From Patescibacteria group bacterium (GTDB taxonomy: Bacteria; Patescibacteriota; Microgenomatia; UBA8517), in NCBI GenBank assembly GCA_036381415.1, contig DASVCV010000001.1:69053-133052 (forward strand): 64,000 nucleotides of DNA, read 5' to 3'. The position numbers were made by a program, and so were the translations under genes. Numbering within the stretch: the first letter of the stretch is position 1; each line of letters opens with the position of its first letter. Below the pieces are notes generated by a model. The model was not told where the DNA came from. It did no database searches and saw nothing but the letters and a program-made list of their open reading frames with translations. Shown here piece by piece: positions 7,673-59,119 of the stretch.

Positions 7673-7688
7673 TAGTTTATTCTACAAC

Positions 7689-39481: not shown

Positions 39482-40480
39482 TTATCTCAGTTTCTTAACT
39501 TCTTCTTCCAATTTTGTTAAATTATTTTTGTACCAACGGACAATATTAAAATCTTCGCGGATCATTTGTTCTTTAACATCAACTTTATTTACATACAATC
39601 TAATCAATGAATGTATGTTGGTAATAAGAAAATAGTAATAGGCTCTGAAAATCTTTGATGCTGAATTATCTTTAAAACTCGATTTTAAATATGGTTGGAT
39701 TGATGTGAGAATATTCGCTATCTCAGAGACTTCGAGGTTTACCCTTTCAGGATCAGGTTTAAATAGTGTAAATGTAATTGTTTTCATCAGGTCGACTTCT
39801 ACGAAACCATAGTCAGATTTTTCCCAATCAACAATCCAGAAGTTATTATTTTTATCTCTAATAATGTTTTGCTTTAAAAAATCCCCATGAAGAATTTGTC
39901 CTTTTGTTTGAAAATTTAATATTTCCGATCTATTATTCTCCACTTCTGTTTTTAAGAACTCTAAATATTCTAAATCTCTTGGAGCAGAGGGGAATTGGCT
40001 GCTTTTGATTGCGGTTTCAAGCTGGTTTACATTTCTCATAAAAAGCCAATACCTGTCCTCAAAGGACACTGTTCGTTCTTTGCTTATTTTTTTAAGCTCA
40101 GTATTGGTTTGCGAATATAGTGGGAAAAATTCTGGATTATTGTCACGCATTTGCACTTCTGCTTCGGTACGCAAATCTACTCCATCTATATATCTTGAAA
40201 CGGTAAATATACTACCTTGAAATTCAGTTAGATATTCGTTGTCTTTATTTCTTATTAGCTGTGGTATTTGAATTGTTGTGTTGGCCAAATATTGAGTTGA
40301 TTTTTCCACATCGTTTTTTGCCCTGCCTATTTGAGACTGATAATATTTTTTTACAAAGAATATTCCTTGGGTTGTTTCAACTATCGAAAACAAGGATGAT
40401 GGATCATTAAATTTGGAAAAAATCGGCACAAAGGGTTTGACTTCAACCACATCTCCAATAGAATATCTTTCTTTAATCAT
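39482..40480 (-). CDS. APH/choline-kinase-family phosphotransferase
   Basis: Catalytic loop HGDFLKQNII and IVDWEKSDYG (Brenner motif plus DxE). Confidence 0.6.
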   Translation of the reverse strand: MIKERYSIGDVVEVKPFVPIFSKFNDPSSLFSIVETTQGIFFVKKYYQSQIGRAKNDVEKSTQYLANTTIQIPQLIRNKDNEYLTEFQGSIFTVSRYIDGVDLRTEAEVQMRDNNPEFFPLYSQTNTELKKISKERTVSFEDRYWLFMRNVNQLETAIKSSQFPSAPRDLEYLEFLKTEVENNRSEILNFQTKGQILHGDFLKQNIIRDKNNNFWIVDWEKSDYGFVEVDLMKTITFTLFKPDPERVNLEVSEIANILTSIQPYLKSSFKDNSASKIFRAYYYFLITNIHSLIRLYVNKVDVKEQMIREDFNIVRWYKNNLTKLEEEVKKLR

Positions 40481-40482
40481 AA

Positions 40483-41421
40483 TTATATTTCCTTTGCTCT
40501 TTGTTCGGCACTTAAAAGCGCGCCTGGAATGTTAATTTTCTTTTTATTTAATGCAAGGTCTAGGTCTCCTATACAAATAAAATCTTCAACACTACAGTTA
40601 ACCAACTTTGGCCACCTTCCTTCAAAACCTATAAAAACACCTACATATGCTCCATGAGGTGCCTTTATCTGATATTGACTGTCCGTGGAGATGATTTTCT
40701 CAACTAAATTATTTTCATTTAATTTTATTTCTTCTATTTGCCAACAGTTATCAATAATTTGAATGGTTCCTTTTTTAACATAAGACTCTACATCTCTTAC
40801 AAAATCAGGGTTTGCGTGATCGGCAAACTTATTTTTAACAAAAATTGTTATTGGCCCACGAGGAATTTGTGTATATTTTTCCTCTATGTGCTTAGCAACT
40901 CTTGCGGCTTTAAGTAATGTTTTATCCCCACTACCAATAAGAATTATTTCGTGGTTAGAGAAATCGATTTTCTTTAGATCTTCTGCTGAAAAGCTAGATA
41001 TGTTAAATTCCTGGGCGGGCAATCTTCTTATGGCATCAATTTGTTTAAGTCTTGCGCCCGTGGCTAAAACTACATTTTCTGCTTTATATACTTCTCCACT
41101 TTCAGTTGCTAGCTGATATATGTTTTCAGTTTTAGTTATTTGCTTTATTTCGGAATATTGGACTACTCCGTTAAATCCTTTTTGAAAATAATCTGCAATT
41201 CCAGAACCTAGGTGTTTTCCGTCAACTAAAAAGTCCCATTTGGTTTTCTCGTCGGCTTCATGGTTCCTAACAAATAGGCCGTAAGTAGACAGTTCAGAAC
41301 ACAACTCGTTCCCTTTTTCAAATAGAATAATGTTTGTCTTGTGACTTTTGACTAATTCCTGATAGAAAACGATTCCAGCAGGACCACCTCCAACAATGGC
41401 ATATTCGTATTCTTTTTTCAT
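40483..41421 (-). CDS. FAD-dependent pyridine-nucleotide-disulfide-type oxidoreductase
   Basis: N-terminal Rossmann motif AIVGGGPAG and a second GSGD motif; ~312 aa, thioredoxin-reductase-like. Confidence 0.55.
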   Translation of the reverse strand: MKKEYEYAIVGGGPAGIVFYQELVKSHKTNIILFEKGNELCSELSTYGLFVRNHEADEKTKWDFLVDGKHLGSGIADYFQKGFNGVVQYSEIKQITKTENIYQLATESGEVYKAENVVLATGARLKQIDAIRRLPAQEFNISSFSAEDLKKIDFSNHEIILIGSGDKTLLKAARVAKHIEEKYTQIPRGPITIFVKNKFADHANPDFVRDVESYVKKGTIQIIDNCWQIEEIKLNENNLVEKIISTDSQYQIKAPHGAYVGVFIGFEGRWPKLVNCSVEDFICIGDLDLALNKKKINIPGALLSAEQRAKEI

Positions 41422-42377
41422 CTCGAGCTAAGTGCAAGCAGGTGTTGTTCTATTGAAGCCACAAGTGCTTGAGCGTTATATCCTCCTTCCAGGACAGAAA
41501 TGACTGGTATATTAGCAAAGGTGTCTGTTAATTTTTTGGTCATCTCAAAGTAAGCTTTCTCTTCAAGTGAAAATCCACGCATTGGGTCTCTTTTGTGCGT
41601 ATCGAATCCCGCTGAAACCAAAACAATATCAGGAGAGAATGTTTGTTGTATCTTTTCTACCTGACTGGAGAATTTTTTAAGATATTCAGATTGTGTAGAA
41701 GATCGCGGTACTTGAATGAGGCTCTGCCTGTTCTTAATCTCGGGTTTTTTTGGTTTTCCAATGATAGGAAAGTCTATTGTTGATATATCAAAAAAATAAA
41801 TTGAGTCTATTTTCTTAACAACAGAGAATGTGCCATTTCCAAAATGGGTATCCCAATCTATAACCAGCACCTTCTTTTCTGGGTGGAGATTTAGAAAGAA
41901 TTTACTGGCAATCGCAACATTATTGAAAATACAGAACCCGGCCGCTTCCCTGCGAGAAGCATGGTGTCCCGGTGGTCGGATAGCACAAAAAGCATAGTCA
42001 AGCTTATTCTCGGTTATATATGTAATAGCGGCACATGCGGTAGAAGCGGCCAAATAGGCGGCTTCAAACGTTCCACTATCAATGTATGTATCTTTTCTGT
42101 CTAAATACCAGTTTCGTTTTTTAACTTTTCTAGAAATACGCTTAATTTTTTCAATATATTTGGAATCGTGTACAAGTTCTACACACCCAGCTATTAATTC
42201 TGATTGAGGAACGAATTTTAAATTCTGTAGATCTGGATTTTGTTTTAGATGTTCTTCCAAAGATGCTAATCTTTTTCCAGATTCGGGATGGGAAAAATCT
42301 CTACATTCGTGTTGAACGGCGGTGGCAACATAGAAGAGACCAACTCGGTTATTTTTTTCTACTGAAGATCTTTCCAT
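41418..42377 (-). CDS. histone-deacetylase-family (acetylpolyamine/acetoin-type) amidohydrolase
   Basis: HHASRREAAGFCIFNNVAIA and IDWDTHFGNGT metal-site motifs. Confidence 0.7.
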   Translation of the reverse strand: MERSSVEKNNRVGLFYVATAVQHECRDFSHPESGKRLASLEEHLKQNPDLQNLKFVPQSELIAGCVELVHDSKYIEKIKRISRKVKKRNWYLDRKDTYIDSGTFEAAYLAASTACAAITYITENKLDYAFCAIRPPGHHASRREAAGFCIFNNVAIASKFFLNLHPEKKVLVIDWDTHFGNGTFSVVKKIDSIYFFDISTIDFPIIGKPKKPEIKNRQSLIQVPRSSTQSEYLKKFSSQVEKIQQTFSPDIVLVSAGFDTHKRDPMRGFSLEEKAYFEMTKKLTDTFANIPVISVLEGGYNAQALVASIEQHLLALSSR

Positions 42378-42391
42378 TTTAGATTACCTAT

Positions 42392-42916
42392 TCAGCCTTT
42401 CAAGGCATTCGTAAATTCCTCTGAATATGGGTAATCGTGGGTATCGGCAGGTTTAGAAATTACTTTTAGGTTCGGATTTATAGAATGGAGGAATTCTCTA
42501 ATTTCCTCAAAACTGCCGTGGTTGTCTTGTTCGTTTTGAATACAGATAAAGTTGTTATCTGGAAATGTTTTCAATATTTGGTATGACTTTTTCTCTTCTT
42601 CTCCCAAATCTCTTAGTGGAATTCCACAGAGGACCAGTTTATTGACTGTGTTTGGGTTTGTCTTCAGAATATTCATAGCAACTGCGGTTCCAATAGATTT
42701 TGCTAAGATATTTAGCTTCTCGCCTTCCATTTTTTTTGCTACACGAGAAACCTCTACTTTCATCCACTCTCCCCAGTCAGCAAAAGAGGTATTGTTAGTA
42801 GTCCAATGGTCCCATTCCACCACCTCGGCCGGAATTTCAGGTTCCAGTGCCTTTTTGGTCTCGTATGCCCAATCCTTATTTTTGATCGAAAAACCCGGCA
42901 AAATCATTGTTTTCAT
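42392..42916 (-). CDS. hypothetical protein (possible small alpha/beta-hydrolase-like)
   Basis: AKSIGTAV resembles a nucleophile elbow. It is the first gene of the four-gene minus-strand operon. Confidence 0.3.
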   Translation of the reverse strand: MKTMILPGFSIKNKDWAYETKKALEPEIPAEVVEWDHWTTNNTSFADWGEWMKVEVSRVAKKMEGEKLNILAKSIGTAVAMNILKTNPNTVNKLVLCGIPLRDLGEEEKKSYQILKTFPDNNFICIQNEQDNHGSFEEIREFLHSINPNLKVISKPADTHDYPYSEEFTNALKG

Positions 42917-42945
42917 GGAGATAGTTTAACATAAATAGCTGATTT

Positions 42946-43308
42946 ATGAGAATTACTGAGGATAAGTATGACAAGTTTTATCAGTCTTTCTGTGACCGTA
43001 TAGCAGAAATAGATACGCGACTGGCTATGCTTCAGGGCGCCGAAGACAACTATTACATCACGGCTAAATATATACTGGAATTAGCAAATCGAGCGTATGA
43101 TTTATTCAAAAGTTCTGAAATTGAGGAAAGACGCCAACTTTTGAAGCTCACACTTCAAAACATAACCCTAGGTGGTAAAACAGTCCGATTCCAAGCTCAA
43201 AAACTCTTTGATACAATCTTAAATTTCGCAGATAGTCCTTCTTGGCTCCACCTGATGGATGAAGTTAGAACTTATTGTCAAAATATCTGTTGTATAATTT
43301 ATATATGA
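42946..43308 (+). CDS. hypothetical protein
   Basis: 120-aa ORF that overlaps the start of the next gene. Confidence 0.25.
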   Translation: MRITEDKYDKFYQSFCDRIAEIDTRLAMLQGAEDNYYITAKYILELANRAYDLFKSSEIEERRQLLKLTLQNITLGGKTVRFQAQKLFDTILNFADSPSWLHLMDEVRTYCQNICCIIYI

Positions 43309-43709
43309 AAATCAAGATACTTCTTGAGGAACTAGATAAGCTTGGTATTCCAAAGGACAAAATGGCTATCACTTCCTCTGGGCCTTTAGGGATAAGGAAT
43401 TTGCGTGAAATCAATGACTTGGACATAATTGTACTTCCAGAAGTTTGGAGTGATCTTGTCAAAAAATATGATGTAACAAAGGAGGACAACTTTGAATCAA
43501 TTTATATTGGCAACGTACAAGTTTTGGGCGAAGGTTCTTGGTTTACTGATCCGAAGCTTGGAAGTGTAGAAGAAGATATTAAAAACGCCGATGTGATTAA
43601 TGGATACAGATACGTAAAATTAGACAAAATATTAAAAATAAAAAGACTTAAAGATAGAGAGAAAGATATTAAAGATGTAAAAATAATTGAAGAGTATATG
43701 AAAAAGTGA
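43305..43709 (+). CDS. putative nucleotidyltransferase-fold protein
   Basis: SSGPLGIRNLREINDLDIIV resembles a GS...DxD NTase motif. The start is set at MKIKIL. Confidence 0.3.
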   Translation: MKIKILLEELDKLGIPKDKMAITSSGPLGIRNLREINDLDIIVLPEVWSDLVKKYDVTKEDNFESIYIGNVQVLGEGSWFTDPKLGSVEEDIKNADVINGYRYVKLDKILKIKRLKDREKDIKDVKIIEEYMKK

Positions 43710-43788
43710 AGAAGGTCTCCCTTCCTTCCCAAACTATCTAGCTCTACTTGGTGGATAAAGCCAGAACTTGTTGTACAGCAAGATGGGC

Positions 43789-43815
43789 TATGGAGCTATT
43801 TCTCTCCAGATAACT
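43789..43815. repeat. 27-bp direct repeat copy A (tatggagctatttctctccagataact)
   Basis: Exact match to 47936..47962. Read on the minus strand it encodes ..VIWREIAP*, the same C-terminus as the gene at 47935..49650. Confidence 0.8.
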
Positions 43816-43892
43816 GGTTTCTCCAGAGCGCTAAATTTAAATTTTGTCTAGTGCAGCTTGTGTCAGGCTGATATAATGCTTGTTGAATCTAA

Positions 43893-44813
43893 ATGCCAGG
43901 AATAGAACATTTTTCCACAGTTAATACTCCCTTGGATCAATATAGAGAATCTATTGAGTTGGAATTAGTGAAAAGAGTTGAAGTTCCATTCACGAAGGGA
44001 GAAATTATTTATGCACAGACTGAGTCAGGTGTGAGTGTGGTGGTTAAAAAACCTCTGCGCAAAGAGCAAGCAGAGCACGAATGGGTAGGATTAAACAAGG
44101 CACATTCAACAGGAATTTTAGTACCATTGCCGATTGCACTTATAAATTACAGCCAAGAACAGTTGGCTATTGTTTCTGCTCTAGTTGACGGAAATAACCT
44201 ATATTATTTCCCTAACCCCAAAATTAAATCTGAGATTGGTAGGCAAGTCAGGATAATGCATGACCTAGCAGAAGTTGACGGAAGAACTTGGGAATCAAGC
44301 GGACGAAAAACTTTTGAGTATTACGACAAATATAAATTTAATTGGTCTAGAGGGAAAATCGAAGAACTTAGCATTGATAGCGAGACATCTTTATTATTGA
44401 CTTCTCTTGCAATAAATATGGAGGTTTTTTGCAGAGAGTCCCAACCCACCTTTAATCACAACGATTTGCATGACGGTCAGATTATTGTAGATAAAAACAA
44501 CACTCCTGTGATTATAGATTTCGGCAACTGGAATGAAGAAACGTGGCTCAATGACCTGGGTTACTACTTATTTCATTTAATAAGAACTGATAGAAATAAT
44601 GATGACTTTGGAAATTTTTTAGATGGCTACACTGGAGGTAAAAAATTTTCTGATGTTGAGAAATCCAACTTAGCATTCTACTTGTTATTTATATCATCAA
44701 GGGCTCTAGCCTACTTTTACAGAAACAATAGTCCATACCTTGCAATAGCTAAAGATACACACACGAAAGTATTAGCTTACTTAGCTGATGAAGTATTATG
44801 GAAATCTTATTGA
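43893..44813 (+). CDS. APH/protein-kinase-like phosphotransferase
   Basis: Catalytic loop HNDLHDGQII and IIDFGNW (DFG-like). Confidence 0.55.
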   Translation: MPGIEHFSTVNTPLDQYRESIELELVKRVEVPFTKGEIIYAQTESGVSVVVKKPLRKEQAEHEWVGLNKAHSTGILVPLPIALINYSQEQLAIVSALVDGNNLYYFPNPKIKSEIGRQVRIMHDLAEVDGRTWESSGRKTFEYYDKYKFNWSRGKIEELSIDSETSLLLTSLAINMEVFCRESQPTFNHNDLHDGQIIVDKNNTPVIIDFGNWNEETWLNDLGYYLFHLIRTDRNNDDFGNFLDGYTGGKKFSDVEKSNLAFYLLFISSRALAYFYRNNSPYLAIAKDTHTKVLAYLADEVLWKSY

Positions 44814-45460
44814 TTCGACTTTTTTTCTAAGTACTTAAGGTGAGAGTAGTTATTTATATAGTTAATTTGCCAAGTTTGCCATTGGCTGCTGTGGATTAAA
44901 AGCGAGAGACCTGTATTGTTGATTGCTAGATTGTTGATAGCTCTAAACATACTTTCGTGTGAATAGTTCCTGCCTAACAAAACATTGCTTAATAGACACC
45001 TTATAAAAAGATCGTGAGATACAACTAAAACGCGTTTACCTTGGTAGTTTTTTGTTAAAAACAGCAACAACTTAGAAGTACGGTCTAGAACTTCGCGGGT
45101 TGATTCTTCTTTTCCTTCAAATTTCCAGTCCAAATTTCCAAAGTTTTTACGGTATTCATTAGCATATTTCATAGAAATTTCGCTGTTTCTTAAAGCGCCA
45201 TACATATCAGGAAGTTGTTTTCTCTCGTGGATATAATCCAAAATCTCAAAGTCAATTTGAGCTTCTTTAGAAATAATTTCTGCGGTTTTGCGAGATCGCT
45301 CCCAATCGCTCGAAAAAATTTTATCTATTTTGTAAAATTTCACCTGTTTACCAAGAGCTTCGGCTTGTTTCTTACCGATATCGCTAAGCTTTGAATTTGG
45401 CGTTTGCCAACGATCTTTTACGGCTTCACCCTCGGCGTGTCTAGCAAGAAATAAGAACAT
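44807..45460 (-). CDS. histidine phosphatase family protein
   Basis: LARHAEGEA N-terminus. It is a clear paralog of the gene at 32876..33520 (SDWERSRKTAEIISKE vs SKWDRARKTAQIVSKK; VLVVSHDLFIRC vs ILVVTHGLFIRC). Confidence 0.65.
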   Translation of the reverse strand: MFLFLARHAEGEAVKDRWQTPNSKLSDIGKKQAEALGKQVKFYKIDKIFSSDWERSRKTAEIISKEAQIDFEILDYIHERKQLPDMYGALRNSEISMKYANEYRKNFGNLDWKFEGKEESTREVLDRTSKLLLFLTKNYQGKRVLVVSHDLFIRCLLSNVLLGRNYSHESMFRAINNLAINNTGLSLLIHSSQWQTWQINYINNYSHLKYLEKKSNQ

Positions 45461-45473
45461 CTAGAGAATTATA

Positions 45474-46244
45474 CTATAAAGTCCCTATCGCGATAACCCC
45501 AATTACACTTTCGTCTATTTTGTCGAAATCCAGTAATTGGTTTAATCCATCATCTATAAATCCTCCAATAGAACAGGCACCTAACCCAAGCTCTTGTGCA
45601 ATTAGATTTATGTTTTGAGCATAATGCCCATATTCTGTATAAATGTGTCGCAGGCCTCGATCTCCGTACTTACTTTCTGTTCTATCAAAGATAGCAGATA
45701 CAATGATTAAAAGAGACGCTTTGCGTATCCATGGCTGGTTAAATTGCTTTATGGTTTTGATGAAAAATGACTTATCGTAAATTTTTTCCAGTGAATGGCT
45801 TTTAACGTGATAATGATATATTCCTGGTTTTATATTTTCAGATCGAAAAACAATAGGATAAATTTCCAAAGGATATCTTGCTCCTGCCGATGGGTAAAAC
45901 CTTCTCTCACCGGCTTTTTTGAATAATAGTTGTTTTAGACCTCCGGAAAAATATAACAGATTGGAAAGGTCACTAATCTTAATATATTTTTTGGTAAATT
46001 TTCTTGTAGAGACTCTTTTGACCAATGCATCGTTTAGACTCCATTTTGCGGCAACTGGAACAGGTAGCAAAGCTTGGTTCATTCTCGGATAAGCTTTGTA
46101 ATAAATCTTTTTCCACTGTTCAGGCCAAGTACTATATGGAGTTTTTTTGTAATTACTGAAATCCTTTATTTTTATACTATTGTTGAACTTTCTCGACAAA
46201 GAAAGATCCAATTTCTCTAAAATACTTACAGTTTTATTTTTCAT
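45474..46244 (-). CDS. SagB/McbC-type FMN-dependent dehydrogenase (azoline oxidase)
   Basis: RRFYPSAGARYPLEIY...PGIYHYH, the hallmark of the SagB-type dehydrogenase domain, and a nitroreductase-fold C-terminus (GHYAQNINLIAQELGLGACSIGGF). Confidence 0.7.
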   Translation of the reverse strand: MKNKTVSILEKLDLSLSRKFNNSIKIKDFSNYKKTPYSTWPEQWKKIYYKAYPRMNQALLPVPVAAKWSLNDALVKRVSTRKFTKKYIKISDLSNLLYFSGGLKQLLFKKAGERRFYPSAGARYPLEIYPIVFRSENIKPGIYHYHVKSHSLEKIYDKSFFIKTIKQFNQPWIRKASLLIIVSAIFDRTESKYGDRGLRHIYTEYGHYAQNINLIAQELGLGACSIGGFIDDGLNQLLDFDKIDESVIGVIAIGTL

Positions 46245-47560
46245 AAGAATGGATGTGGGTAAGCGTTTAGTTTAGCGTTGCGTTTGTATCCTAACTTAGA
46301 TGGCACGTCATATAGCCTTTTCCCTCCCCATAGTGGAAACTTTTCGTCTAAGTATAAGGGTTGCATACCTGGAACTAAAACTTTTACAGCCTTGAAAGGA
46401 ATATTTTTAAAATACATTGGAGTTATATCTTTATAATAAATTGTATAGTTCCTTTTTCTTAAAATATTCTTTAACTGTGTAATTTGTGCCTGCACTGACA
46501 CTCTCTTATTTTTAGGTCCAATATTTTTGATTTTCAGTTCTTTAATTAAAAAGTTAATTTTAGAAATTGATCTAGGATGGTACCAAAGCAACCCTCTGTT
46601 TTTTATACTTGAATCCTCAAACAGTTTCACTTTCGAAATACTCACAGGGTTTTTAATGTATGCTTCTCTAATCCAACTCCTAGTATGAAAAGCTTCATTA
46701 ATAGATCCGACAATAGCCTTTTCCACATCTAAATTAGCTTTAAGGCCGACAGAGACAGCCTTACTTAACCCTGAACGGTCAATTAATATAGAAGCAACAA
46801 CAGGTATATCTAAATCTGTACTAATATCTACTGAATATAACTCCATGTTATACCTATCTGTAATTTCAACTAATGAACTTATAATTTTATTTTTAGAGGA
46901 TCTCAAATCATATTTTTTTGGCTTCAGTTTGTTCAAATAGTAGATCATAAAAGAATCTCTCTCAATAATTTCGTAAATTCCTGCTAAAATTGCTGAATCC
47001 AAATTAGAATGACCTGCAGCACCTGTGCTTATTGAAGGGTGTATTATTGGTTCGCTTTGAATTGGATCGTATGAAAGATAAATTGATTGGCAAGGGACAA
47101 GGTATTCTTTGCTGTTAGTTAATGATTTAACTTTTGTCCATCTAAACCTAGACTTTTCATCAATTAGAAATTTTTTATACTCGTTAATATGTAGTTGTTT
47201 CTCAGAAAAATACACAAACAACCTTGGGTTTATTGCACTAGTTTTAACATCTGAATATGTACCTGTAAAATCAACATCTTTTTGGAAAAAAGCAAAATTA
47301 CTATATCTCTCCAAAGCCTCAACTAAAGCTTTGAGTACAGCCATCTTTTGTGAGAAAAAAGAAACGCCAGAAGAATTAGAACTAAAGTGCAGACCATCAT
47401 GTGTTAGGTTCTTATCGCTTAACGTTGCAGAGTAAAACCAAAATTTAGGCTCATCATAATGTTGCCTAGTTCTTTCAAAAGACTCAACTAGATTGATTTG
47501 ACCTAGAGCAGAATCAAGCCCTTTGATTATGTTAGAAGTACTTTTTTTCATAAAACACAA
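46241..47560 (-). CDS. YcaO-domain cyclodehydratase (standalone)
   Basis: YcaO N-motif SGVSFFSQKMAVLKALVEALERYS and ATP-binding region ISTGAAGHSNLDSAILAGIYEIIERDSF. It overlaps the SagB gene by 4 nt. Confidence 0.75.
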   Translation of the reverse strand: MCFMKKSTSNIIKGLDSALGQINLVESFERTRQHYDEPKFWFYSATLSDKNLTHDGLHFSSNSSGVSFFSQKMAVLKALVEALERYSNFAFFQKDVDFTGTYSDVKTSAINPRLFVYFSEKQLHINEYKKFLIDEKSRFRWTKVKSLTNSKEYLVPCQSIYLSYDPIQSEPIIHPSISTGAAGHSNLDSAILAGIYEIIERDSFMIYYLNKLKPKKYDLRSSKNKIISSLVEITDRYNMELYSVDISTDLDIPVVASILIDRSGLSKAVSVGLKANLDVEKAIVGSINEAFHTRSWIREAYIKNPVSISKVKLFEDSSIKNRGLLWYHPRSISKINFLIKELKIKNIGPKNKRVSVQAQITQLKNILRKRNYTIYYKDITPMYFKNIPFKAVKVLVPGMQPLYLDEKFPLWGGKRLYDVPSKLGYKRNAKLNAYPHPFL

Positions 47561-47605
47561 TCAAAACTACAAAGACACTATATATCGATTCAAAGAGATA
47601 ATGCC

Positions 47606-47803
47606 TTATTTGTTCGTTTTTCTATTTTTACTACCACCATCGCATCCGCAGCTCGCGCATGATGAGCAGCTACCGCAGCTATTTGACCCACAAGCACAAT
47701 TGGAACAATTTCCACAGCTTTGTGCGCAATCGTCCTCATTGCCTGCTACAGGAATATTTTGGTGTGGTATGGCTTCAGTTAAGCTTCTTTCTTCTCTACT
47801 CAT
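47606..47803 (-). CDS. RiPP precursor peptide with Cys/Ser/Gly-rich core
   Basis: 65 aa. The leader is MSREERSLTEAIPHQNIPVAGNEDD and the core is CAQSCGNCSNCACGSNSCGSCSSCASCGCDGG. A strong SD (AAGGGGGTGA) sits 5 nt upstream of the ATG, and the stop is 45 nt upstream of ycaO. Confidence 0.6.
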   Translation of the reverse strand: MSREERSLTEAIPHQNIPVAGNEDDCAQSCGNCSNCACGSNSCGSCSSCASCGCDGGSKNRKTNK

Positions 47804-47840
47804 TCAACTCACCCCCTTTAGTACAAGACATGTGGATATC

Positions 47841-47869
47841 AATATATTCTTTGTTATAGGGTCTGTCAA
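47841..47869 (-). promoter_or_regulatory. sigma70-like promoter TTGACA-N17-TATATT for the precursor-ycaO-sagB operon
   Basis: Minus strand: TTGACA (47864..47869), a 17-nt spacer, then TATATT (47841..47846), ~37 nt upstream of the precursor ATG. Confidence 0.5.
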
Positions 47870-47934
47870 GAGTAGACAACTTTCAAAACTTGATTTATGG
47901 AGTAAGAGCCTAAGTAATGTTGGTTTATTTTACG

Positions 47935-49650
47935 TTATGGAGCTATTTCTCTCCAGATAACTCTGGTTCTTGTCAGGTCTCTTGGATATGAGAAAAGAAA
48001 GTCAGGAGCATATTGTATAAACTCTGCTGGTGTTGTTGTATTTAAGGCACCTAAATCTCTTTGAAGATTAATGCCAGATAACCCTGCTAAAGAGCCTCTA
48101 ATAGAAAGCTGACTGGCTCCTAGACCTGTTGAAATTACTCCATCTGCCAGAAACAATCCTTCAGCAGCAGGAGTTCCGGGATTGGAAGTAAGTGTAGGAT
48201 CAAAAATTATATTTCCTCCACTTCCTCCTGCATCTTTTCCTGCTATTGCCATGAAGAATCCATCTCCAACTTTTGAAACTCTAATGCTTGATGCAACTGT
48301 AAGATTTCCTCCTTTAACTAGGATTATGTATTTTCTAGAAGAATTAACATTAACATTTCCAGTTAAAGTTAGATCTCCATTTCTTCTAAACCAGACAAAT
48401 CCATGAGATGGGGTTCCGTTTGCTTGAAGGTATGCACCGCTAATTGAATCAGTTGGAATATCATTTACCTGAATATCTGATGGAATAAGTCCTTCAAAGT
48501 AAGCATAGTTATATGTTTTTCCCTGATATGTAGTATTGGTTAACCACTTCTTGGATGATACTGTTCCATTGGTTGCACCTGCTGAAAAGTCTGCAGTTGC
48601 TCCTCCATACGTAACTACTCCTGGAAAAGTTCCTGTTCCATCTAAGTTAAATGAAGGAATGCAGCCTGGAAGAGTACACGTGAGGGGAATTAAAGAAGTT
48701 AAATTTCCATTTGTAATTACATCTCCATCTTTTACCTGCCACCATGCTTTAGATGGGGCTACATTTACCGCTGTTTGTGCACTACACCTTATAGAGCCTC
48801 CCATTACTACTGAAGCACTCATAACTGTATTGCCTATTCCAACTCCTCTTACTGCTGTTCTAAATGGAGAAGAAGTTATAGGACTGGTTGCTGTTGCAAT
48901 TGCCGCATTTCCAGTATTGTAATCAATCTCAGAAATAGACCCGTTTGTAGTAGTTAGTGTTGGGGTAACACTAGTTTCACCTCCAACAAAGGCTTGTACT
49001 GATGGAGGAAGAGAGATTGTACATGTTGGTGGAGGAGGACAAAGACACGTACCTCCCTGATTTGTAAGACCAGGGGCGCAGCCACTACAAGTTCCGTAAG
49101 TAGAACAGGTTGCATCACAGTAATTTCCCTCACCATAGTTACATCTTGGATATCCAGTTGCTCCTGTATCCCAAGCACAGCCTGGAACATACCCACCACC
49201 ACAGCCAACATAGCTTTTAACACAAGACCCATTACCACAACAAATGTTGCTTTGAGCAGGATCACAATTAGATGCATTACAGCCTCCCCCACCTCCACCA
49301 CCAGGAGGAGTAGGTGTGGGACTAGAGCTTGCTATCCAGCATTTACCAGGGTTTGTTGTTGTACTACCTCCACAGTTACCGCTTCCATATTGTCCTGGAG
49401 AACAGCTAAAAGAAAAGGCAGTATAATCACACCATCCTCCCGACCCTGTTTCAAAATTACAGCTCACGTAACGGCAATTACTTGAAGGACCGTTGCATTG
49501 GTATATACCGCCTGGTATTGATGAGCAGACGTAATCATCTGTGCAAACATAGCAGGATTGAGCTTTCACTGGTTTGGGTAACAGCAATAAAACAAGTGAT
49601 AAAATTCCGAACAAAATGGAACCAAAAAGAAGATTTTTGTATATATGCAT
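47935..49650 (-). CDS. secreted Cys/Gly-rich protein (571 aa)
   Basis: N-terminal signal peptide (LFGSILFGILSLVLLLLPKPVKA) and an N-terminal half very rich in Cys/Gly/Ser/Thr with poly-Gly and PTPTPP tracts. The C-terminal half has beta-rich repeats. Confidence 0.5.
   Translation of the reverse strand: MHIYKNLLFGSILFGILSLVLLLLPKPVKAQSCYVCTDDYVCSSIPGGIYQCNGPSSNCRYVSCNFETGSGGWCDYTAFSFSCSPGQYGSGNCGGSTTTNPGKCWIASSSPTPTPPGGGGGGGCNASNCDPAQSNICCGNGSCVKSYVGCGGGYVPGCAWDTGATGYPRCNYGEGNYCDATCSTYGTCSGCAPGLTNQGGTCLCPPPPTCTISLPPSVQAFVGGETSVTPTLTTTNGSISEIDYNTGNAAIATATSPITSSPFRTAVRGVGIGNTVMSASVVMGGSIRCSAQTAVNVAPSKAWWQVKDGDVITNGNLTSLIPLTCTLPGCIPSFNLDGTGTFPGVVTYGGATADFSAGATNGTVSSKKWLTNTTYQGKTYNYAYFEGLIPSDIQVNDIPTDSISGAYLQANGTPSHGFVWFRRNGDLTLTGNVNVNSSRKYIILVKGGNLTVASSIRVSKVGDGFFMAIAGKDAGGSGGNIIFDPTLTSNPGTPAAEGLFLADGVISTGLGASQLSIRGSLAGLSGINLQRDLGALNTTTPAEFIQYAPDFLFSYPRDLTRTRVIWREIAP
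47936..47962. repeat. 27-bp direct repeat copy B
   Basis: Exact match to 43789..43815. It forms the last 8 codons plus stop of the 47935..49650 gene. Confidence 0.8.
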
Positions 49651-49721
49651 AACTATTTCATTATTGGTTTTTTTAGGAGAAAAATCAATGCCTTGATTTT
49701 ATAGGATAATGAAGAACGATA

Positions 49722-52007
49722 TTACTTATTTACGGTTATTCCAACACCGCCTCTAATGTCAATCCAGTCATTAAATTTTTGAGAAGCAAGGCTTAATAAT
49801 ATATCTGAATCGTCTATTGAACTTAATAGTTGCAGCTTTTGAGATAATTCTTCAAATCCAACCCCATTGTTTAATTTTAATTCTAAGACTTTGGCGTAAA
49901 GCTCTTTAGACAAGACAGGCTCGCCCACACCTATCATGATTTGATCGCCAGGTTTCAACATCGACAATAAGTTACTCCAGCTTATTGCCTGATCAGACTT
50001 TCCATCTGTTGAATAGGTTGGATCACCATAGCCCTCAGGTCTTTTAACATCAGAGTAATCTGGGAATAAAAATCTTACTTTGGAATAACCACCCTGAGAT
50101 GAAGGGACTATTGTACTGACTCCAATCCAATTTGTCCCATCTGGTTTTTGGACTTTTTCTCCACCTTTAACAAATATTACTCCTACGCCATACATTTTTA
50201 GATTAATATCTTTGACTTCAAATCTTAGGTGCGCTCCATATTGAGGTTTGACAAATTTACCATTAACCTGTTCAACAACTTTTTTACCTAATGGTGTAAC
50301 TGTAGCTTTCACACCCTCAATCTCGATTGAGCTTATATTCGTGCCTGATCCATTAACTTTTACATTTATATTTTCCGGTTGGCTGGAACTTCCTGCATCT
50401 GGATTTATTTTTGGACTAAATGGTGCTTCTTGAGGAACTTCAGTTGGTGCAATATCAGATAGAACATCTGAATCAGGATTTGCTAGAGGAATTGATCCGT
50501 TGTCTGCAAAAAGAACAAGAGGGCGGCCGTCTCTGGTTAGTTGAGCAAATGTCCAATCTCCTTCTACTGCATCAAATGTGGTTCCATTTTTACCCACTAC
50601 CCCTTTGACTATTTTCTTGAGTGCTTCAGTTACCTTAATTACTTTTGTAACAGTTTCAGGAATTCCTTTGAATTTTATGGGATCTACATATTTAAGCTGA
50701 TTGTCTTTTGCTCCAAAAAGGCCATTGTTGCCAAGGTATATATTTTTATTCTTTTCTGCATAATCAGTAAGAGATACTTTGTTTCCATCATTTAATCCCC
50801 AAACCCTTACAAGAGGATATACATAGATTTCTCCACTTGGAAGCTTGGTTGCTATATATTCAAGATTTAATTTGGCTCCCTGCTCTTTAGCAAATTTCAT
50901 GAAGGGAATTAAGCTTCCAACCATTTGTCCTAATGGAGAATCAGCTTCTAATAACATGGATCCTTCAATATTTATAAATAACTTGCCATCTTTTTGAACA
51001 AGTGGATTTGCTGGGATATTTATATCTTTAGAAATTGCAGCAAAGTCATCTGCTTTAACTTCATATGATTTAAGCAACCTATCCTGTTGGTCAGGAGTGA
51101 GTTTGATACGTGGAAGTGAAATTAAATTCTCAACTTCTCCAGGAGCAAATTCTTTTCCTCCAGCAAGTACAGGAAATGCATATGGAGCATTACTTTCCTG
51201 AATACTATTAGGACTTACTCTTTTTGAAAGATCAAATATTTTGTCTACATTTTTGGCAGCATTTATTCCTGGCCAAGGATCTCCACCTTTAAAATTTTCT
51301 GGAGCTGGAAGAGTTTTGGCAATAGACAGCAGGGTTGCTATTTCACCAATTTTAAATTCAAATGTTTGTGGTTGAGGTTTTCTTTGCTGTTCAGCGTAGG
51401 CCACTGATCCTGCTCCAACTGCTCCTGCTGTTGCAACTGCAACGGCTGCAGCTACTTTTTTATTGACTATGTGTTTTACAGCTGGACCTTCTTGAGGAAT
51501 AGATTGCAAAAATCTTTCTTTTGCATCTTCAATCTGGGCTTTTAACTGTCTTGTTTGAATAGCAGCTTCTGTGTTGTTTTTGCGTTTGTGTTTTAAGAAG
51601 TCTGAAATTTGCCCCAAATTTTCATCAACCTGGTCTAATTTTTTAACTGCATCCAATGCTTTTATTTCTTTGTCTGTCTCAGATATTTCAGTCTTTCCGA
51701 CTTGCTTTTGCACAGCTTTGGTAAACTCTGTGACTCTATCCAAGTCGCTTTGGTGGACTGTTATTACATCTGGGTTAATTGTGAGGTCGTGTGCTTCATA
51801 GAGCTTCTTACCTACAACTTCATTGCCTTCTCTTATTAGTTTGCTGTAGAGGCCAACATTATGCTGGATGGCAGCATCAAGATTCTGTCTCTTTTCTGCG
51901 AGACCTAATTCTTCAAGGGTTTTTGCCCTTCTTGATTGTTCTGATAGGTTTATCTGTTCTGCACTCATATCTTTTAAGTTTTTTACCTCTACTTGCTGAT
52001 CAGTCAT
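49722..52007 (-). CDS. large hypothetical membrane-anchored protein (761 aa)
   Basis: N-terminal coiled-coil region, one TM segment (VAAAVAVATAGAVGAG), and a large C-terminal domain with no recognised motifs. Confidence 0.45.
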   Translation of the reverse strand: MTDQQVEVKNLKDMSAEQINLSEQSRRAKTLEELGLAEKRQNLDAAIQHNVGLYSKLIREGNEVVGKKLYEAHDLTINPDVITVHQSDLDRVTEFTKAVQKQVGKTEISETDKEIKALDAVKKLDQVDENLGQISDFLKHKRKNNTEAAIQTRQLKAQIEDAKERFLQSIPQEGPAVKHIVNKKVAAAVAVATAGAVGAGSVAYAEQQRKPQPQTFEFKIGEIATLLSIAKTLPAPENFKGGDPWPGINAAKNVDKIFDLSKRVSPNSIQESNAPYAFPVLAGGKEFAPGEVENLISLPRIKLTPDQQDRLLKSYEVKADDFAAISKDINIPANPLVQKDGKLFINIEGSMLLEADSPLGQMVGSLIPFMKFAKEQGAKLNLEYIATKLPSGEIYVYPLVRVWGLNDGNKVSLTDYAEKNKNIYLGNNGLFGAKDNQLKYVDPIKFKGIPETVTKVIKVTEALKKIVKGVVGKNGTTFDAVEGDWTFAQLTRDGRPLVLFADNGSIPLANPDSDVLSDIAPTEVPQEAPFSPKINPDAGSSSQPENINVKVNGSGTNISSIEIEGVKATVTPLGKKVVEQVNGKFVKPQYGAHLRFEVKDINLKMYGVGVIFVKGGEKVQKPDGTNWIGVSTIVPSSQGGYSKVRFLFPDYSDVKRPEGYGDPTYSTDGKSDQAISWSNLLSMLKPGDQIMIGVGEPVLSKELYAKVLELKLNNGVGFEELSQKLQLLSSIDDSDILLSLASQKFNDWIDIRGGVGITVNK

Positions 52008-52177
52008 ATGGTTAAATTTATATTAATTATAACCACAAGGCAAGTGGCTTGACTTATAGTGGGAAATTATAACAACTTCTATCCTAAAGTCAAATATTAT
52101 AAGCTGTAACTTATACTTGAGCTTGATCCTAAATATCCTTATATATAGGTTATTTAGCTCAACAATATTTATGGCGT

Positions 52178-52200
52178 AAAAAAGCCGCCCTATTGGCGGC
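52178..52200 (-). terminator. rho-independent terminator (GCCGCC-aatag-GGCGGC + U6) on the minus strand
   Basis: 6-bp GC stem immediately followed by TTTTTT on the minus strand. It lies between the 49722..52007 gene start and the ORF-poor region. Confidence 0.5.
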
Positions 52201-53008
52201 TCCCGGCCTTACCCTTTTTTAGAGTAAGTAACCAACTTACAGCTGGTATATTTAATTGCATTCCGTATACTATTATACCATGTTTCTCAAACAGAAGAAT
52301 AACTTTGTGAACATTGAAGCAGACAAGACTTAAATGAATGAATCGTGACGTCAACAACTAATTTGACACACGTTAGGTTTAATAATATATTATAGGTTGC
52401 ATATTCTTAATGGATATATTTTTCTAAAAGCACGTTTACACAAGGTTCAAATCTTTACTGGTAAGACCATTATTCATTCTGCATAGTTGATATCTTGCCA
52501 ATAAAGACAAGAATCATACTCACCTCTTTTTTGAGGTAACTCCAGACCAGAAGCGGTCTGATAGTTACAACAATGAAAAGATCCTTGAAGGAACAGTCAG
52601 ACAGGCTAAATTGCCCAGATGGTGCAAAACCGCTTACTCTCACCCTGTGAGAGGAAAACTGTAGCGAAACAAGAAAACACCAAGAGTGGCAGAAGCTAGT
52701 CTAAACTCAAACCTTAAGCACGGCTTTAAAGCCAGTAGCCCAATAAAGGGAACCTGTAAGGATTTCTCCTTACGCAAGATCATCGATGAGGTGATAGTTG
52801 ACACAATACGACCAAAACGATGCTGCACGAGACACTGACAGCAGTACTAGTGACGTTCGAGATGCATGGCATGACGCACGTACTGATGCAGAAGATTCGG
52901 GATATCTCGACAGAGGTTCCGATTCTGGTAGCAGCGGACAAGGTGGAAGCGGTACTGATTCGACCGGAACCCATTCGGACGACTAAAGTCAGCCGCTGAC
53001 AACTGAAT

Positions 53009-53048
53009 CATTCGCACCAGGTATGCGTTTTACGCATACCTGCGAATG
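53009..53048 (+). other. long bulged hairpin (core GGTATGCG-TTTTA-CGCATACC)
   Basis: 8-bp perfect core stem extended by TTCGCA/TGCGAA pairing; it lies 40 nt upstream of the M16 peptidase gene. Confidence 0.4.
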
Positions 53049-53087
53049 GTATAAACATTTTTCATTGAGAATGTATATAATAACCCT

Positions 53088-54404: not shown

Positions 54405-54471
54405 TTAATTGTGAAGGGGCTCTTTGGATTTTGGCCTCATTTAATCTCAGTCCTGATTTTAAAACCTATAG

Positions 54472-57108: not shown

Positions 57109-57131
57109 TGGCGTGACTATGCGATGTGTGC

Positions 57132-57170
57132 GTTGTGGATCTCATCTGAGATCCACAACCATCTCTTTTG
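57132..57170 (+). terminator. rho-independent terminator (13-bp stem GTTGTGGATCTCA/TGAGATCCACAAC + T-rich tail)
   Basis: Perfect inverted repeat 24 nt after the stop of the CHAP-protein gene, followed by catctcttttg. Confidence 0.55.
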
Positions 57171-57325
57171 AACTAGAACTTAAATTGGAGAGGTAAAACA
57201 ATATTTACTTAATTGCGAGTATTTTTAATTGTTTTTATGTAAAAATTTAAGAAGTATTAAAGCGGTAGATATTATTTATCTTTCACTAAAGCTTGTGAAT
57301 AGATGAAGTGCCTACCGCTTTTTTA

Positions 57326-57934: not shown

Positions 57935-58040
57935 ATAAAGAAATTATATCAAATTTCAGACGTAAAAACTAATCGACTATAGGTTTTTTCTAGTTTATGA
58001 CTTTTTTACAAAAAGACAAAATAGATGCTAAAATATATTT

Positions 58041-59102: not shown

Positions 59103-59119
59103 TATTGACGTTATCGCCC

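What the first reader, a model, noticed from the sequence alone, without database searches (positions are those of the whole stretch)
43789..47962. Exact 27-bp direct repeats bracket the ~4.1-kb RiPP/kinase/phosphatase cassette and duplicate a gene 3' end
tatggagctatttctctccagataact occurs at 43789..43815 and at 47936..47962 in the same orientation. Copy B is the last 8 codons plus stop (..VIWREIAP*) of the Cys/Gly-rich secreted-protein gene. Copy A is an orphan of the same coding end in an intergenic spacer. An insertion into the 3' end of a gene that regenerates the target's terminal codons is the signature of site-specific integration (att duplication), or of a deletion/duplication junction. 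Between the repeats lie the APH-like kinase, a histidine phosphatase, sagB, ycaO, the precursor and its promoter. The RiPP cassette therefore looks like an acquired module, although I see no integrase or transposase inside it.
Basis: seen in the sequence. Interest (0 to 1): 0.75.

Follow-up and report, generated by a model that had tools for sequence, protein, structure and literature searches.

The report
Mobile peptide-antibiotic cassette with attachment-site repeats
The two identical 27-base repeats are real and most likely mark where a small, mobile gene cassette for a modified-peptide natural product was spliced into the very end of a secreted-protein gene in a Patescibacteria (CPR) genome; this is a known kind of genomic island, and the same cassette turns up at several other insertion sites in related bacteria.

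Summary
The exact 27-nt direct repeat occurs only at 43789-43815 and 47936-47962, with 0 matches expected by chance. A second assembler reproduces both junctions.

The interpretation (attachment-site duplication around an acquired module) is supported, mainly by comparison with other genomes:
- The five-gene unit precursor-YcaO-SagB-His-phosphatase-APH kinase is conserved as a block (66-74% nt identity to the window's cassette) in at least 10 other Patescibacteria loci with unrelated flanks.
- In one genome it lies in a 7.2-kb island with a tyrosine integrase, bounded by an exact 50-nt tRNA-Val 3' repeat.
- In others it sits beside a large serine recombinase (LSR) at tRNA-Trp, or between duplicated 3' ends of comM.
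- In a distant genome (L092/L169) the cassette again follows a gene of the same '...WxEVAP*' family. There it is bracketed by a different exact 25-nt repeat that covers the same last codons and ends at the same 'TA' of the stop codon.

The window's cassette carries no recombinase. Base composition is not distinctive, and no same-species empty site was available.

Best reading: an integrase-less island flanked by att sites (like a CIME or pseudo-SCC element). It is a new member of a known kind.

The parts
47936..47962 (-). Repeat copy B, the gene-proximal att-like site. It forms the last base of codon -9, the codons VIWREIAP and the 'TA' of the stop codon of the target gene.
43789..43815 (-). 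Repeat copy A, the distal att-like site. It is an orphan copy of the same coding end ('...KPVIWREIAP*', stop TAG), with 12 open codons upstream and no start codon, in an intergenic spacer.
47935..49650 (-). Target gene: a 571-aa Cys/Gly-rich secreted protein. It belongs to a Patescibacteria family with a conserved C-terminus ...W[RKQE]E[VI]AP*. The gene is intact.
47841..47869 (-). Promoter-like site (TTGACA-17-TATATT, 11/12 matches) upstream of the precursor gene. DNA homology with the cassette of L008/L009 begins here (47869).
47606..47803 (-). Precursor peptide, 65 aa, with a Cys/Ser/Gly-rich core. It is conserved (60-69% identity) next to the YcaO gene in the other loci.
46241..47560 (-). 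YcaO cyclodehydratase (SagD-type; TIGR03604, 251.5 bits against a cut-off of 219).
45474..46244 (-). SagB-type FMN dehydrogenase (TIGR03605, 147.5 bits against a cut-off of 78).
44807..45460 (-). Histidine phosphatase (His_Phos_1), a conserved member of the cassette.
43893..44813 (+). APH-like kinase, transcribed in the opposite direction. It is the last gene of the cassette in every locus.
43709..43730 (-). Terminator-like hairpin plus T-run on the strand of the target gene, 60-80 nt beyond orphan copy A. It is plausibly the original terminator of the Cys-rich gene, now separated from it by the insertion.
43275..43709 (+). ORF of 144 aa (134 aa from the ATG at 43305) of unknown function (phrog_12854). 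It lies between the recombinase remnant and copy A, and may belong to a decayed neighbouring element.
42946..43308 (+). Truncated large serine recombinase gene. Only the C-terminal ~100 aa of a ~490-510-aa Resolvase+Recombinase+Zn_ribbon_recom protein remain. It points towards copy A, the same convergent arrangement as the intact recombinases seen at tRNA targets in L093 and L176.

Best explanation
The two 27-nt repeats are the left and right attachment sites (attL/attR) left by Campbell-type, site-specific integration. A ~4.1-kb circular element carrying a TOMM-type RiPP cassette (precursor, YcaO, SagB, His-phosphatase, APH kinase) integrated into the last codons of a secreted-protein gene of the '...WxEVAP*' family.

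The element carried its own copy (a 'mimic') of the gene's final ~9 codons and a stop codon. The target gene therefore stays intact at the gene-proximal junction (copy B). The displaced original gene end, and probably the gene's terminator, sit on the far side as an orphan (copy A).

The cassette has no recombinase of its own, so it must have been integrated in trans or have lost its recombinase. The most concrete candidate is the large serine recombinase whose truncated remnant lies 480 bp beyond copy A. That remnant could be what is left of a neighbouring element that integrated in tandem at the same site. With that gene destroyed, the cassette is probably now fixed in place.

Shown: the repeats, their exact relation to the gene end, the modular conservation of the cassette, its presence in true integrase/att islands elsewhere, and a second independent case at the same gene family.
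Inferred: the circular intermediate, the identity of the recombinase, tandem accretion, and present immobility.
For: 1. The 27/27 repeat is unique in the window, with 0 matches expected by chance. Homology stops abruptly inside the stop codon on one side and after ~33 nt on the other. Orthologous gene ends in other genomes differ at synonymous sites, so exact identity means recent common origin rather than protein-level conservation.
2. The five-gene cassette is conserved as one block (window 43863-47869 is 74% and 70% nt identical to L008 and L009; 66-68% to eight further loci) in non-syntenic contexts. The block ends 48-66 nt inside the repeats.
3. L009-L012: the same cassette lies in a 7.2-kb island bounded by an exact 50-nt repeat equal to the 3' part of tRNA-Val, with a tyrosine integrase next to the tRNA.
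4. L093/L095: tRNA-Trp, then a large serine recombinase, then the cassette, with a 22/23-nt flanking repeat in L093.
5. L090/L178/L179: the cassette lies between two orphan 3' fragments of comM that are still open reading frames. They differ from comM by 46-48 synonymous-only codon changes against 38-41 amino-acid changes, so they evolved as coding gene ends.
6. L013: a ~120-nt repeat at ~93% identity flanks the cassette.
7. L092/L169/L170 (YcaO 64% identical; family gene only 34% identical): the cassette again follows a WxEVAP-family gene and is bracketed by an exact 25-nt repeat. Over 33 nt there are 3 differences, all synonymous (Arg CGA/AGA, Pro CCT/CCG, stop TAG/TAA). The repeat ends at the same 'TA' of the stop codon as in the window.
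8. Insertion site does not follow cassette relatedness. The window groups with L008/L009. L092 groups with L090 (comM) and L013 at 79-84% nt. The WxEVAP site was therefore used in two cassette lineages, and close cassettes sit in different sites.
9. The closest homologues of the target gene (53-72% identity) have no cassette downstream.
10. Recombinase remnant: 42946-43308 matches the last ~100 aa of ~500-aa large serine recombinases. An intact relative (P0151) ends directly against the 3' end of a convergent tRNA, the same arrangement as remnant versus copy A.
11. A terminator-like hairpin on the target gene's strand lies just beyond copy A.
Against: - No intact recombinase lies inside the repeats or anywhere in the 64-kb window. 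The serine-recombinase remnant lies outside the repeat-bounded segment and is separated from copy A by another ORF.
- No element with a recombinase was found integrated at a WxEVAP gene end, so the enzyme for this att site is unidentified.
- Base composition, GC3 and tetranucleotide usage of the cassette are indistinguishable from the rest of the window.
- No same-species empty site, circular junction or size polymorphism could be examined.
- The 27-mer has only a weak 5-bp internal inverted repeat and no obvious recombinase-type dyad symmetry.
- WxEVAP-family genes also lie within 10 kb of more distant YcaO-SagB loci that have no orphan repeats (L022, L025, L026, L101). Some of the adjacency could therefore reflect an old linkage or a shared variable region rather than targeting.
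- L008 shows no flanking repeats, and L014 only degenerate multi-copy ones.
Confidence: 0.75

Rival explanations
1. Integration by general homologous recombination rather than a dedicated recombinase. A circular or transformed DNA carrying a short copy of the gene end recombined with the chromosomal gene end through RecA. This single crossover also leaves direct repeats, and heteroduplex repair would keep them identical.
For: No recombinase lies inside the repeats in four repeat-bounded units (window, L092, L090, L013). The repeats are perfectly identical over 25-27 nt, close to the minimal length for RecA-dependent recombination (own knowledge). DprA, a natural-transformation protein, is encoded at 5412-6056.
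Against: Recombination at 27 nt of homology is very inefficient. The repeat boundaries coincide to within 1 nt in two very divergent genomes, which fits a fixed crossover or mimic better than random crossovers. The same cargo is demonstrably moved by integrases elsewhere.
Confidence: 0.1
2. Non-mobile origin. Copy A would be the last remnant of a second (paralogous or tandemly duplicated) family gene whose body was deleted. The repeats would then be a duplication/deletion scar, not an integration signature.
For: The gene family has many members with a conserved C-terminus. Copy A keeps a stop codon and shows weak extra similarity ('F.FS', plus 6 nt after an indel).
Against: 27/27 nt identity with an abrupt loss of all similarity on both sides is not the pattern of a decaying paralogue. 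Orthologues differ at synonymous sites within these codons. A second genome has the same architecture with a different repeat sequence and the same boundaries. The segment between the repeats is a module found at other att sites. No paralogue exists in the window.
Confidence: 0.07
3. The repeat is a selected cis-element rather than a scar. For example, a transcript through copy A on the + strand (upstream of the APH kinase gene) would be perfectly antisense to the 3' end of the Cys-rich mRNA and could couple their expression.
For: Copy A lies 78 nt upstream of the APH start codon, on the strand antisense to the Cys-rich gene. The orphan copy is maintained without mutation in two genomes.
Against: The best promoter-like sequence I read for APH (TTGTCT...TGATATAAT, ~43845-43878; my reading, not listed by the scan) lies downstream of copy A. 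The transcriptional context of the orphan differs between the window (co-directional upstream gene) and L092 (divergent gene). No Rfam family matches and no strong structure is apparent. This idea does not explain the comM, tRNA or intergenic repeats around the same cassette.
Confidence: 0.04
4. Assembly artefact: a chimeric join or collapse at a short repeat.
For: The data come from a metagenome-assembled genome. The Logan contig ends at 43220, close to copy A.
Against: A second assembler gives an identical sequence across both junctions. The repeat is shorter than k=31. The equivalent architecture in another organism was recovered from three separate data sets (L092, L169, L170).
Confidence: 0.02

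Closest known systems
CIMEs (cis-mobilizable elements) of the ICESt1/ICESt3 family in Streptococcus. These are decayed islands that keep attL/attR at the 3' end of a protein-coding gene but have lost their integrase and transfer genes, and that build tandem arrays by accretion.
   Same: [quoted passage not shown] No recombination or transfer genes inside. A decayed recombinase gene next door is compatible with tandem accretion. The definition and the accretion scenario are in PMC5704250.
   Different: No functional partner element with the same att specificity has been found. The nearby recombinase remnant is a serine, not a tyrosine, recombinase. The host is a CPR bacterium and the cargo is a 4-kb RiPP cluster. 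Mobilisation was not tested.
SCCmec / enterococcal cassette chromosome (ECC), including ccr-less pseudo-SCC remnants.
   Same: Large serine recombinases insert these cassettes into the 3' region of a conserved protein-coding gene (rlmH). They leave direct repeats as attL/attR and the gene stays intact. Recombinase-less remnants with attL inside the gene and attR downstream are described (PMC6222049). Here too a serine-recombinase gene, now truncated, lies beside the cassette.
   Different: The target gene is different (WxEVAP family, not rlmH). No intact ccr-like genes are present. The repeat lacks the conserved TATCATAA-type core and clear dyad symmetry. The element is much smaller.
tRNA-gene-targeting genomic islands with a tyrosine integrase (P4-like type).
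   Same: The 3' end of the target gene is duplicated as an exact direct repeat. The identical cargo cassette occurs in exactly such an island in L009 (tRNA-Val, 50-nt repeat, integrase).
   Different: In the window the target is a protein-coding gene, the repeat is 27 nt, and no integrase is present.
Prophages and elements that carry a substitute 3' end for a protein-coding target, such as e14 and phage 21 in icd of E. coli (own knowledge).
   Same: The element supplies an alternative coding 3' end, so the gene remains functional, and the displaced original end persists as an orphan. The comM case (L090) and the all-synonymous differences in L092 show this behaviour.
   Different: The mimic is only ~9 codons long in the window, against 50-odd codons in icd. 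There are no phage genes.

Membership tests
Site-specifically integrated genomic island (att-flanked) | Direct repeats bound the inserted DNA. | tested here: met
   Exact 27-nt repeat at 43789-43815 and 47936-47962, 0 expected by chance. The conserved cassette block (43863-47869) is nested 48-66 nt inside the repeats.
Site-specifically integrated genomic island (att-flanked) | One repeat overlaps the 3' end of the target gene and leaves it intact. | tested here: met
   Copy B encodes ...VIWREIAP plus the stop codon. The C-terminus matches the family consensus.
Site-specifically integrated genomic island (att-flanked) | A recombinase (integrase) is encoded in the element. | tested here: not met
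   No recombinase domain lies between the repeats, and no intact one anywhere in the window. Only a truncated serine recombinase is present, outside copy A.
Site-specifically integrated genomic island (att-flanked) | Presence/absence polymorphism: an empty site in relatives. | tested here: inconclusive
   The closest homologues of the target gene (53-72% identity; L002, L005, L006) have no cassette downstream. They are not the same species and their flanks are not syntenic. No other contig carries the flanking 134-aa gene.
Site-specifically integrated genomic island (att-flanked) | The same cargo is found at other integration sites, with integrases. | tested here: met
   tRNA-Val with a tyrosine integrase (L009). 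tRNA-Trp with a serine recombinase (L093/L095). comM 3' end (L090). WxEVAP gene end in a second genome (L092).
Site-specifically integrated genomic island (att-flanked) | Excision to a circular form, or a restored attB. | not testable with these tools
   This needs reads or an experiment.
Site-specifically integrated genomic island (att-flanked) | Atypical base composition. | tested here: not met
   Tetranucleotide distance is at the median of same-size windows. GC is 0.348 against 0.365 for the window. This feature is not required for membership.
CIME (cis-mobilizable element) | Retains attL and attR but lacks integration and transfer genes. | tested here: met
   definition in PMC5704250.
CIME (cis-mobilizable element) | Related to, or mobilised by, an element with a recombinase of the same att specificity. 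| tested here: inconclusive
   A recombinase remnant lies adjacent. No recombinase-bearing element was found at a WxEVAP att site in any fetched locus.
SCC-type cassette chromosome | ccr-type large serine recombinase(s) in the element. | tested here: not met
   Only a C-terminal fragment is present, outside the repeats.
SCC-type cassette chromosome | Integration in the 3' region of rlmH, with a conserved att core. | tested here: not met
   The target is a WxEVAP-family gene, and no TATCATAA-like core is present.
Transposon with target-site duplication | A short target-site duplication (2-15 bp), terminal inverted repeats and a transposase. | tested here: not met
   The repeat is 27 nt. No inverted repeat links the two ends among the 25 longest pairs listed. 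No transposase is present. In L092 the copies differ only at synonymous sites, which a fill-in duplication does not predict.
TOMM-type (thiazole/oxazole) RiPP gene cluster | SagD-type YcaO cyclodehydratase. | tested here: met
   TIGR03604, 251.5 bits against a cut-off of 219.25; Pfam YcaO E=1.9e-53.
TOMM-type (thiazole/oxazole) RiPP gene cluster | SagB-type dehydrogenase. | tested here: met
   TIGR03605, 147.5 bits against a cut-off of 78.4.
TOMM-type (thiazole/oxazole) RiPP gene cluster | Cys/Ser/Thr-rich precursor peptide next to the enzymes. | tested here: met
   65-aa ORF with the core ...CAQSCGNCSNCACGSNSCGSCSSCASCGCDGG..., conserved in the other loci. No curated family matches it.
TOMM-type (thiazole/oxazole) RiPP gene cluster | E1-like / SagC (or Ocin-ThiF) partner protein. 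| tested here: not met
   None of the five cassette proteins has such a domain. Whether the YcaO works alone is unknown.

The most novel reading that the evidence does not exclude
The ~4-kb RiPP unit may be a still-active, recombinase-less mobile 'gene cassette' of Patescibacteria. It would travel as a circle carrying an interchangeable mimic of a host gene's 3' end (WxEVAP gene, comM, tRNA). Recombinases encoded elsewhere would insert and excise it, as with integron cassettes or CIMEs. Excision between the direct repeats would switch peptide production off and restore the original gene-terminator arrangement. Four of the six repeat-bounded units examined contain no recombinase, which is what this reading predicts.
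Probability: 0.2. Interest if true: 0.7.

Novelty: new member of a known kind. Interest (0 to 1): 0.5.

Why it matters
Mobile elements and natural-product clusters of Patescibacteria (CPR) are poorly characterised. This work indicates that one compact TOMM-type RiPP cluster, always accompanied by a kinase and a phosphatase, moves as a unit between CPR genomes. It has used at least four different identified targets (two tRNAs, comM and the conserved C-terminal codons of a secreted-protein family), plus an intergenic repeat pair in L013.

This gives three practical benefits:
- Clear boundaries for the biosynthetic unit, useful for heterologous expression.
- A candidate new attachment site with a conserved '...WxEVAP*' coding motif.
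- A set of natural att pairs (25-50 nt) and associated serine and tyrosine recombinases from an under-explored phylum that could be tested as recombination tools.

The principle itself, gene-end-targeting islands and their integrase-less derivatives, is well established.

Tried and rejected
- Composition as evidence of foreign origin: GC, GC3 and tetranucleotide distance of 43816-47935 are ordinary for this window.
- Third, degenerate repeat copy that would delimit a tandem neighbour: none above background.
- Known RNA family or tRNA at the repeats: no Rfam hit in 42800-48200, and none in the L013 repeats. The only tRNAs in the window are at 14.5-16.7 kb.
- Tyrosine integrase like that of L009, or other parts of the serine recombinase, elsewhere in the window: none. 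Pfam on nearly all ORFs of 100-150 aa or more found no integrase or transposase.
- Same-species empty site: the best homologue of the target gene is only 53% identical over most of its length. Exact-protein look-ups returned only the same Logan contig.
- Cassette on known phages or plasmids: no phage hit, and plasmid YcaO hits are at most 31% identical.
- Viral-contig scan for '...W[KR]E[VI]AP*' ends as possible element-borne mimics: one hit, which lies inside a tail-fibre-like gene on the other strand and is a chance match.
- Conserved element-end sequences between the window and L092: DNA homology is confined to the coding cassette.
- Orphan gene ends near the more distant YcaO loci that also have a WxEVAP gene nearby (L022, L025, L026, L101): none.
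- Literature: no paper in the library describes this cassette or YcaO islands in Patescibacteria.

Full report
**Observation.** The 27-mer TATGGAGCTATTTCTCTCCAGATAACT occurs exactly twice in the window, at 43789-43815 and 47936-47962, in the same orientation. No further match appears even with three mismatches allowed, and none appeared in 100 shuffles. It is the only long exact direct repeat between 38 and 54 kb.

Read on the minus (coding) strand, copy B is the last base of codon -9, the eight codons V-I-W-R-E-I-A-P and the first two bases of the stop codon of the 571-aa Cys/Gly-rich ORF 47935-49650. Copy A encodes '...KPVIWREIAP*' with only 12 open codons upstream and no start codon. It lies in the spacer between the ORF ending at 43709 and the APH kinase gene starting at 43893.

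The two copies differ at the third base of the stop codon (TAA in the gene, TAG in the orphan). On the other side, allowing a 2-nt AG indel, six more bases match, so the homologous tract is about 33 nt. Beyond it there is no similarity.

A Logan contig from run SRR25158368 is identical to window 43220-59650 without a single mismatch and spans both copies. The repeat is shorter than that assembler's k-mer (k=31, my own knowledge). An assembly artefact is therefore unlikely.

**What lies between and around the repeats.**
- APH-like kinase, 43893-44813, plus strand.
- Histidine phosphatase, 44807-45460.
- SagB-type dehydrogenase, 45474-46244 (TIGR03605 above its cut-off).
- SagD-type YcaO, 46241-47560 (TIGR03604 above its cut-off).
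- A 65-aa Cys/Ser/Gly-rich precursor, 47606-47803, with a strong promoter-like site at 47869-47841.

The organism is a Patescibacteria (CPR) MAG. The target gene belongs to a family of large secreted proteins whose C-terminus is conserved as ...W[RKQE]E[VI]AP*. Orthologues in other genomes encode the same last residues with different synonymous codons. The 27/27 nucleotide identity of the two copies in this genome therefore reflects recent common origin, not protein-level constraint alone.

**Comparative evidence that the cassette is a mobile module.** Homologues of the YcaO protein (75-59% identity) led to loci in which precursor, YcaO, SagB, His-phosphatase and the opposed APH kinase occur in the same order.

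At the DNA level, window 43863-47869 aligns to L008 (74%) and L009 (70%), and slightly shorter stretches align to eight further loci (66-68%). The conserved block thus ends 48-66 nt inside the two repeats. The flanking genes differ in every genome.

The contexts are informative:
- **L009-L012.** The cassette lies in a 7.2-kb island bounded by an exact 50-nt direct repeat. This repeat is the 3' part of tRNA-Val(GAC), and a tyrosine integrase sits next to the tRNA. This is a textbook integrated island.
- **L093 and L095.** The order is tRNA-Trp, a full-length large serine recombinase convergent with the tRNA, then the cassette. In L093 a 22/23-nt repeat starting at the tRNA 3' end recurs beyond the APH gene.
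- **L090 (= L178; also the independent L179).** The cassette is bracketed by two orphan 3' fragments of comM. A second small island lies between the intact comM gene and the first fragment, and no recombinase occurs within 21 kb. The fragments are still open reading frames. They differ from comM by 46-48 synonymous-only codon changes against 38-41 amino-acid changes, so they evolved as functional gene ends.
- **L013.** A ~120-nt, ~93% identical intergenic repeat flanks the cassette plus a DpnII-like nuclease gene.

**A second case at the same gene family.** In L092 (JGI), reproduced in the ENA contigs L169 and L170, the YcaO is 64% identical to the window's, and the adjacent WxEVAP-family gene is only 34% identical to the window's target gene. 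There the cassette again follows the family gene directly.

An exact 25-nt repeat (GAATTACCTGGAAAGAAGTGGCACC) forms the gene end '...ERITWKEVAP*' and recurs as an orphan just beyond the APH gene. Aligned without gaps over 33 nt, the two copies differ at three positions, all synonymous: Arg CGA/AGA, Pro CCT/CCG and stop TAG/TAA.

The repeat starts within one nucleotide of the window's repeat (end of codon -9) and ends at the same place (the 'TA' of the stop codon, with the third base differing). Both copies therefore evolved as coding ends. This is what one expects if an integrating element carries a substitute for the target's last codons. It is not what a fill-in target-site duplication or a decaying paralogue would give.

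**Insertion site does not follow cassette relatedness.** A pairwise identity matrix shows these groupings:
- The window's cassette groups with L008 and L009 (70-74%).
- L092 groups with L090, L013 and L014 (78-84%).
- L093 groups with L095 (86%).

The WxEVAP gene end was thus used in two different cassette lineages, and closely related cassettes (L092 and L090, 82%) sit in different targets. The nearest homologues of the window's target gene (L002, L005, L006) have no cassette downstream. This pattern argues for repeated relocation rather than one ancient, vertically inherited insertion.

**Recombinase.** Nothing between the repeats, and no ORF of 100-150 aa or more elsewhere in the window, has an integrase or transposase domain. 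tblastn with the L009 integrase and five serine recombinases found no other recombinase sequence.

The 120-aa ORF at 42946-43308, 480 bp outside copy A, is the C-terminal ~100 residues of a large serine recombinase. It has 1305 relatives (320 with E-value up to 1e-10). The full-length ones are 486-509 aa, match at their last ~100 residues, and carry Resolvase, Recombinase and Zn_ribbon_recom domains.

The remnant points towards copy A. Intact relatives point the same way towards their targets: L093, and L176, where the gene ends directly against a convergent tRNA 3' end.

I therefore propose, as inference, that a recombinase-bearing element once occupied this att site. The cassette joined it in tandem or used its enzyme in trans. 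A later deletion then removed most of the recombinase gene and froze the arrangement. A terminator-like hairpin on the target gene's strand, 60-80 nt beyond copy A, fits the idea that this flank is the gene's original 3' region (weak evidence).

**What speaks against the proposal, or remains open.**
- The enzyme for the WxEVAP att site is not identified.
- No recombinase-bearing element was found at such a site.
- The 27-mer has no clear dyad symmetry.
- Composition gives no signal.
- No empty site or circular junction could be examined.
- WxEVAP-family genes also lie near more distant YcaO-SagB loci without orphan repeats. Part of the adjacency may therefore reflect a shared variable region. 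T4SS-like genes are nearby in the window and in L173.
- RecA-mediated single crossover at a short mimic cannot be excluded.

**Comparison with known systems.** In behaviour this is closest to two kinds of element:
- Integrase-less, att-flanked islands: the CIMEs of the ICESt1 family, whose definition and tandem accretion at the att site containing the gene end are described in PMC5704250.
- SCCmec/ECC elements and their ccr-less remnants, which large serine recombinases place into the 3' region of rlmH with direct repeats as attL/attR (PMC6222049).

It is not a member of either family. The target gene, att core and recombinase complement all differ. The cargo meets the enzyme and precursor criteria of a TOMM-type RiPP cluster but lacks a recognisable SagC/E1-like partner.

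**Verdict.** The repeat is real. The result is a new member of a known kind of element. It is of moderate interest, mainly because it documents a compact, repeatedly relocated RiPP cassette and a protein-coding att site in Patescibacteria.

Noticed in passing
window 42946-43308 (+): The 120-aa ORF is the C-terminal tail of a ~500-aa large serine recombinase. The protein library holds 1305 relatives, and most of the 150 best-scoring ones listed are themselves only 80-250 aa long. Either such truncated tails are common relics in CPR genomes, or a free-standing tail domain exists.
   Followed up: partly
window 43220 (end of Logan contig L001/L175): The independent Logan contig stops inside the recombinase remnant. 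This could be an assembly-graph branch, meaning sequence shared with an intact recombinase gene or a strain variant in the same sample.
   Followed up: no
window 47935-49650; loci L002-L007, L022, L025, L026, L092, L101: This is a family of large Cys/Gly-rich secreted Patescibacteria proteins with a conserved ~270-aa C-terminal domain ending ...W[RKQE]E[VI]AP*. It has no Pfam or NCBIfam model. Members lie within 10 kb of YcaO-SagB loci more often than chance would suggest, including distant YcaO types (L101: family gene, 1.5 kb, YcaO, SagB, then a homologue of window ORF 53088-54404).
   Followed up: partly
window 39482-42916 (-): A second APH-like kinase, an FAD/NAD oxidoreductase, a histone-deacetylase-like enzyme and a small alpha/beta hydrolase form a tight co-directional block just beyond the recombinase remnant. 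It could be cargo of a decayed neighbouring element or an unrelated small-molecule-modifying operon.
   Followed up: no
window 53088-61246; L173 12539-17284: A VirD4/TraG-like coupling ATPase (59120-61246), an S26 peptidase (58041-59102) and large unannotated proteins lie on the other side of the target gene. In L173 the same cassette sits directly next to T4SS genes (T4SS pilin, PrgI, TraC-like, VirB4-like). The cassette may favour a variable region associated with a type IV secretion locus.
   Followed up: no
L090 5074-14097 (= L178, L179): Two recombinase-less islands are inserted in tandem in the 3' end of comM, each followed by its own still-open copy of the last ~120 codons of comM. The first island carries a Bro-N protein, a 251-aa protein and a NUDIX hydrolase.
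   Followed up: partly
L014 6090-7685 and 14584-14624: Several diverged copies of a 41-58-nt unit (three of them in tandem at 7542-7685) lie upstream of the cassette, and one lies downstream. These may be eroded att sites from repeated accretion. No tRNA was detected there.
   Followed up: no
window 32876-33520 (-): A second histidine-phosphatase gene is 43% identical to the cassette's phosphatase. It sits among NUDIX, nucleotidyltransferase and NTPase genes 11 kb away.
   Followed up: no
window 43893-47803 and all cassette loci: The kinase and the phosphatase accompany YcaO and SagB in every locus with at least 50% YcaO identity, but no SagC/E1-like partner is present. This suggests a TOMM variant in which phosphorylation and dephosphorylation form part of maturation or immunity.
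   Followed up: no
window 21838-24985; L009 16402-19239: A FecR-like protein followed by a CHASE2-adenylate/guanylate cyclase occurs both in the window and a few kb from the cassette island of L009.
   Followed up: no
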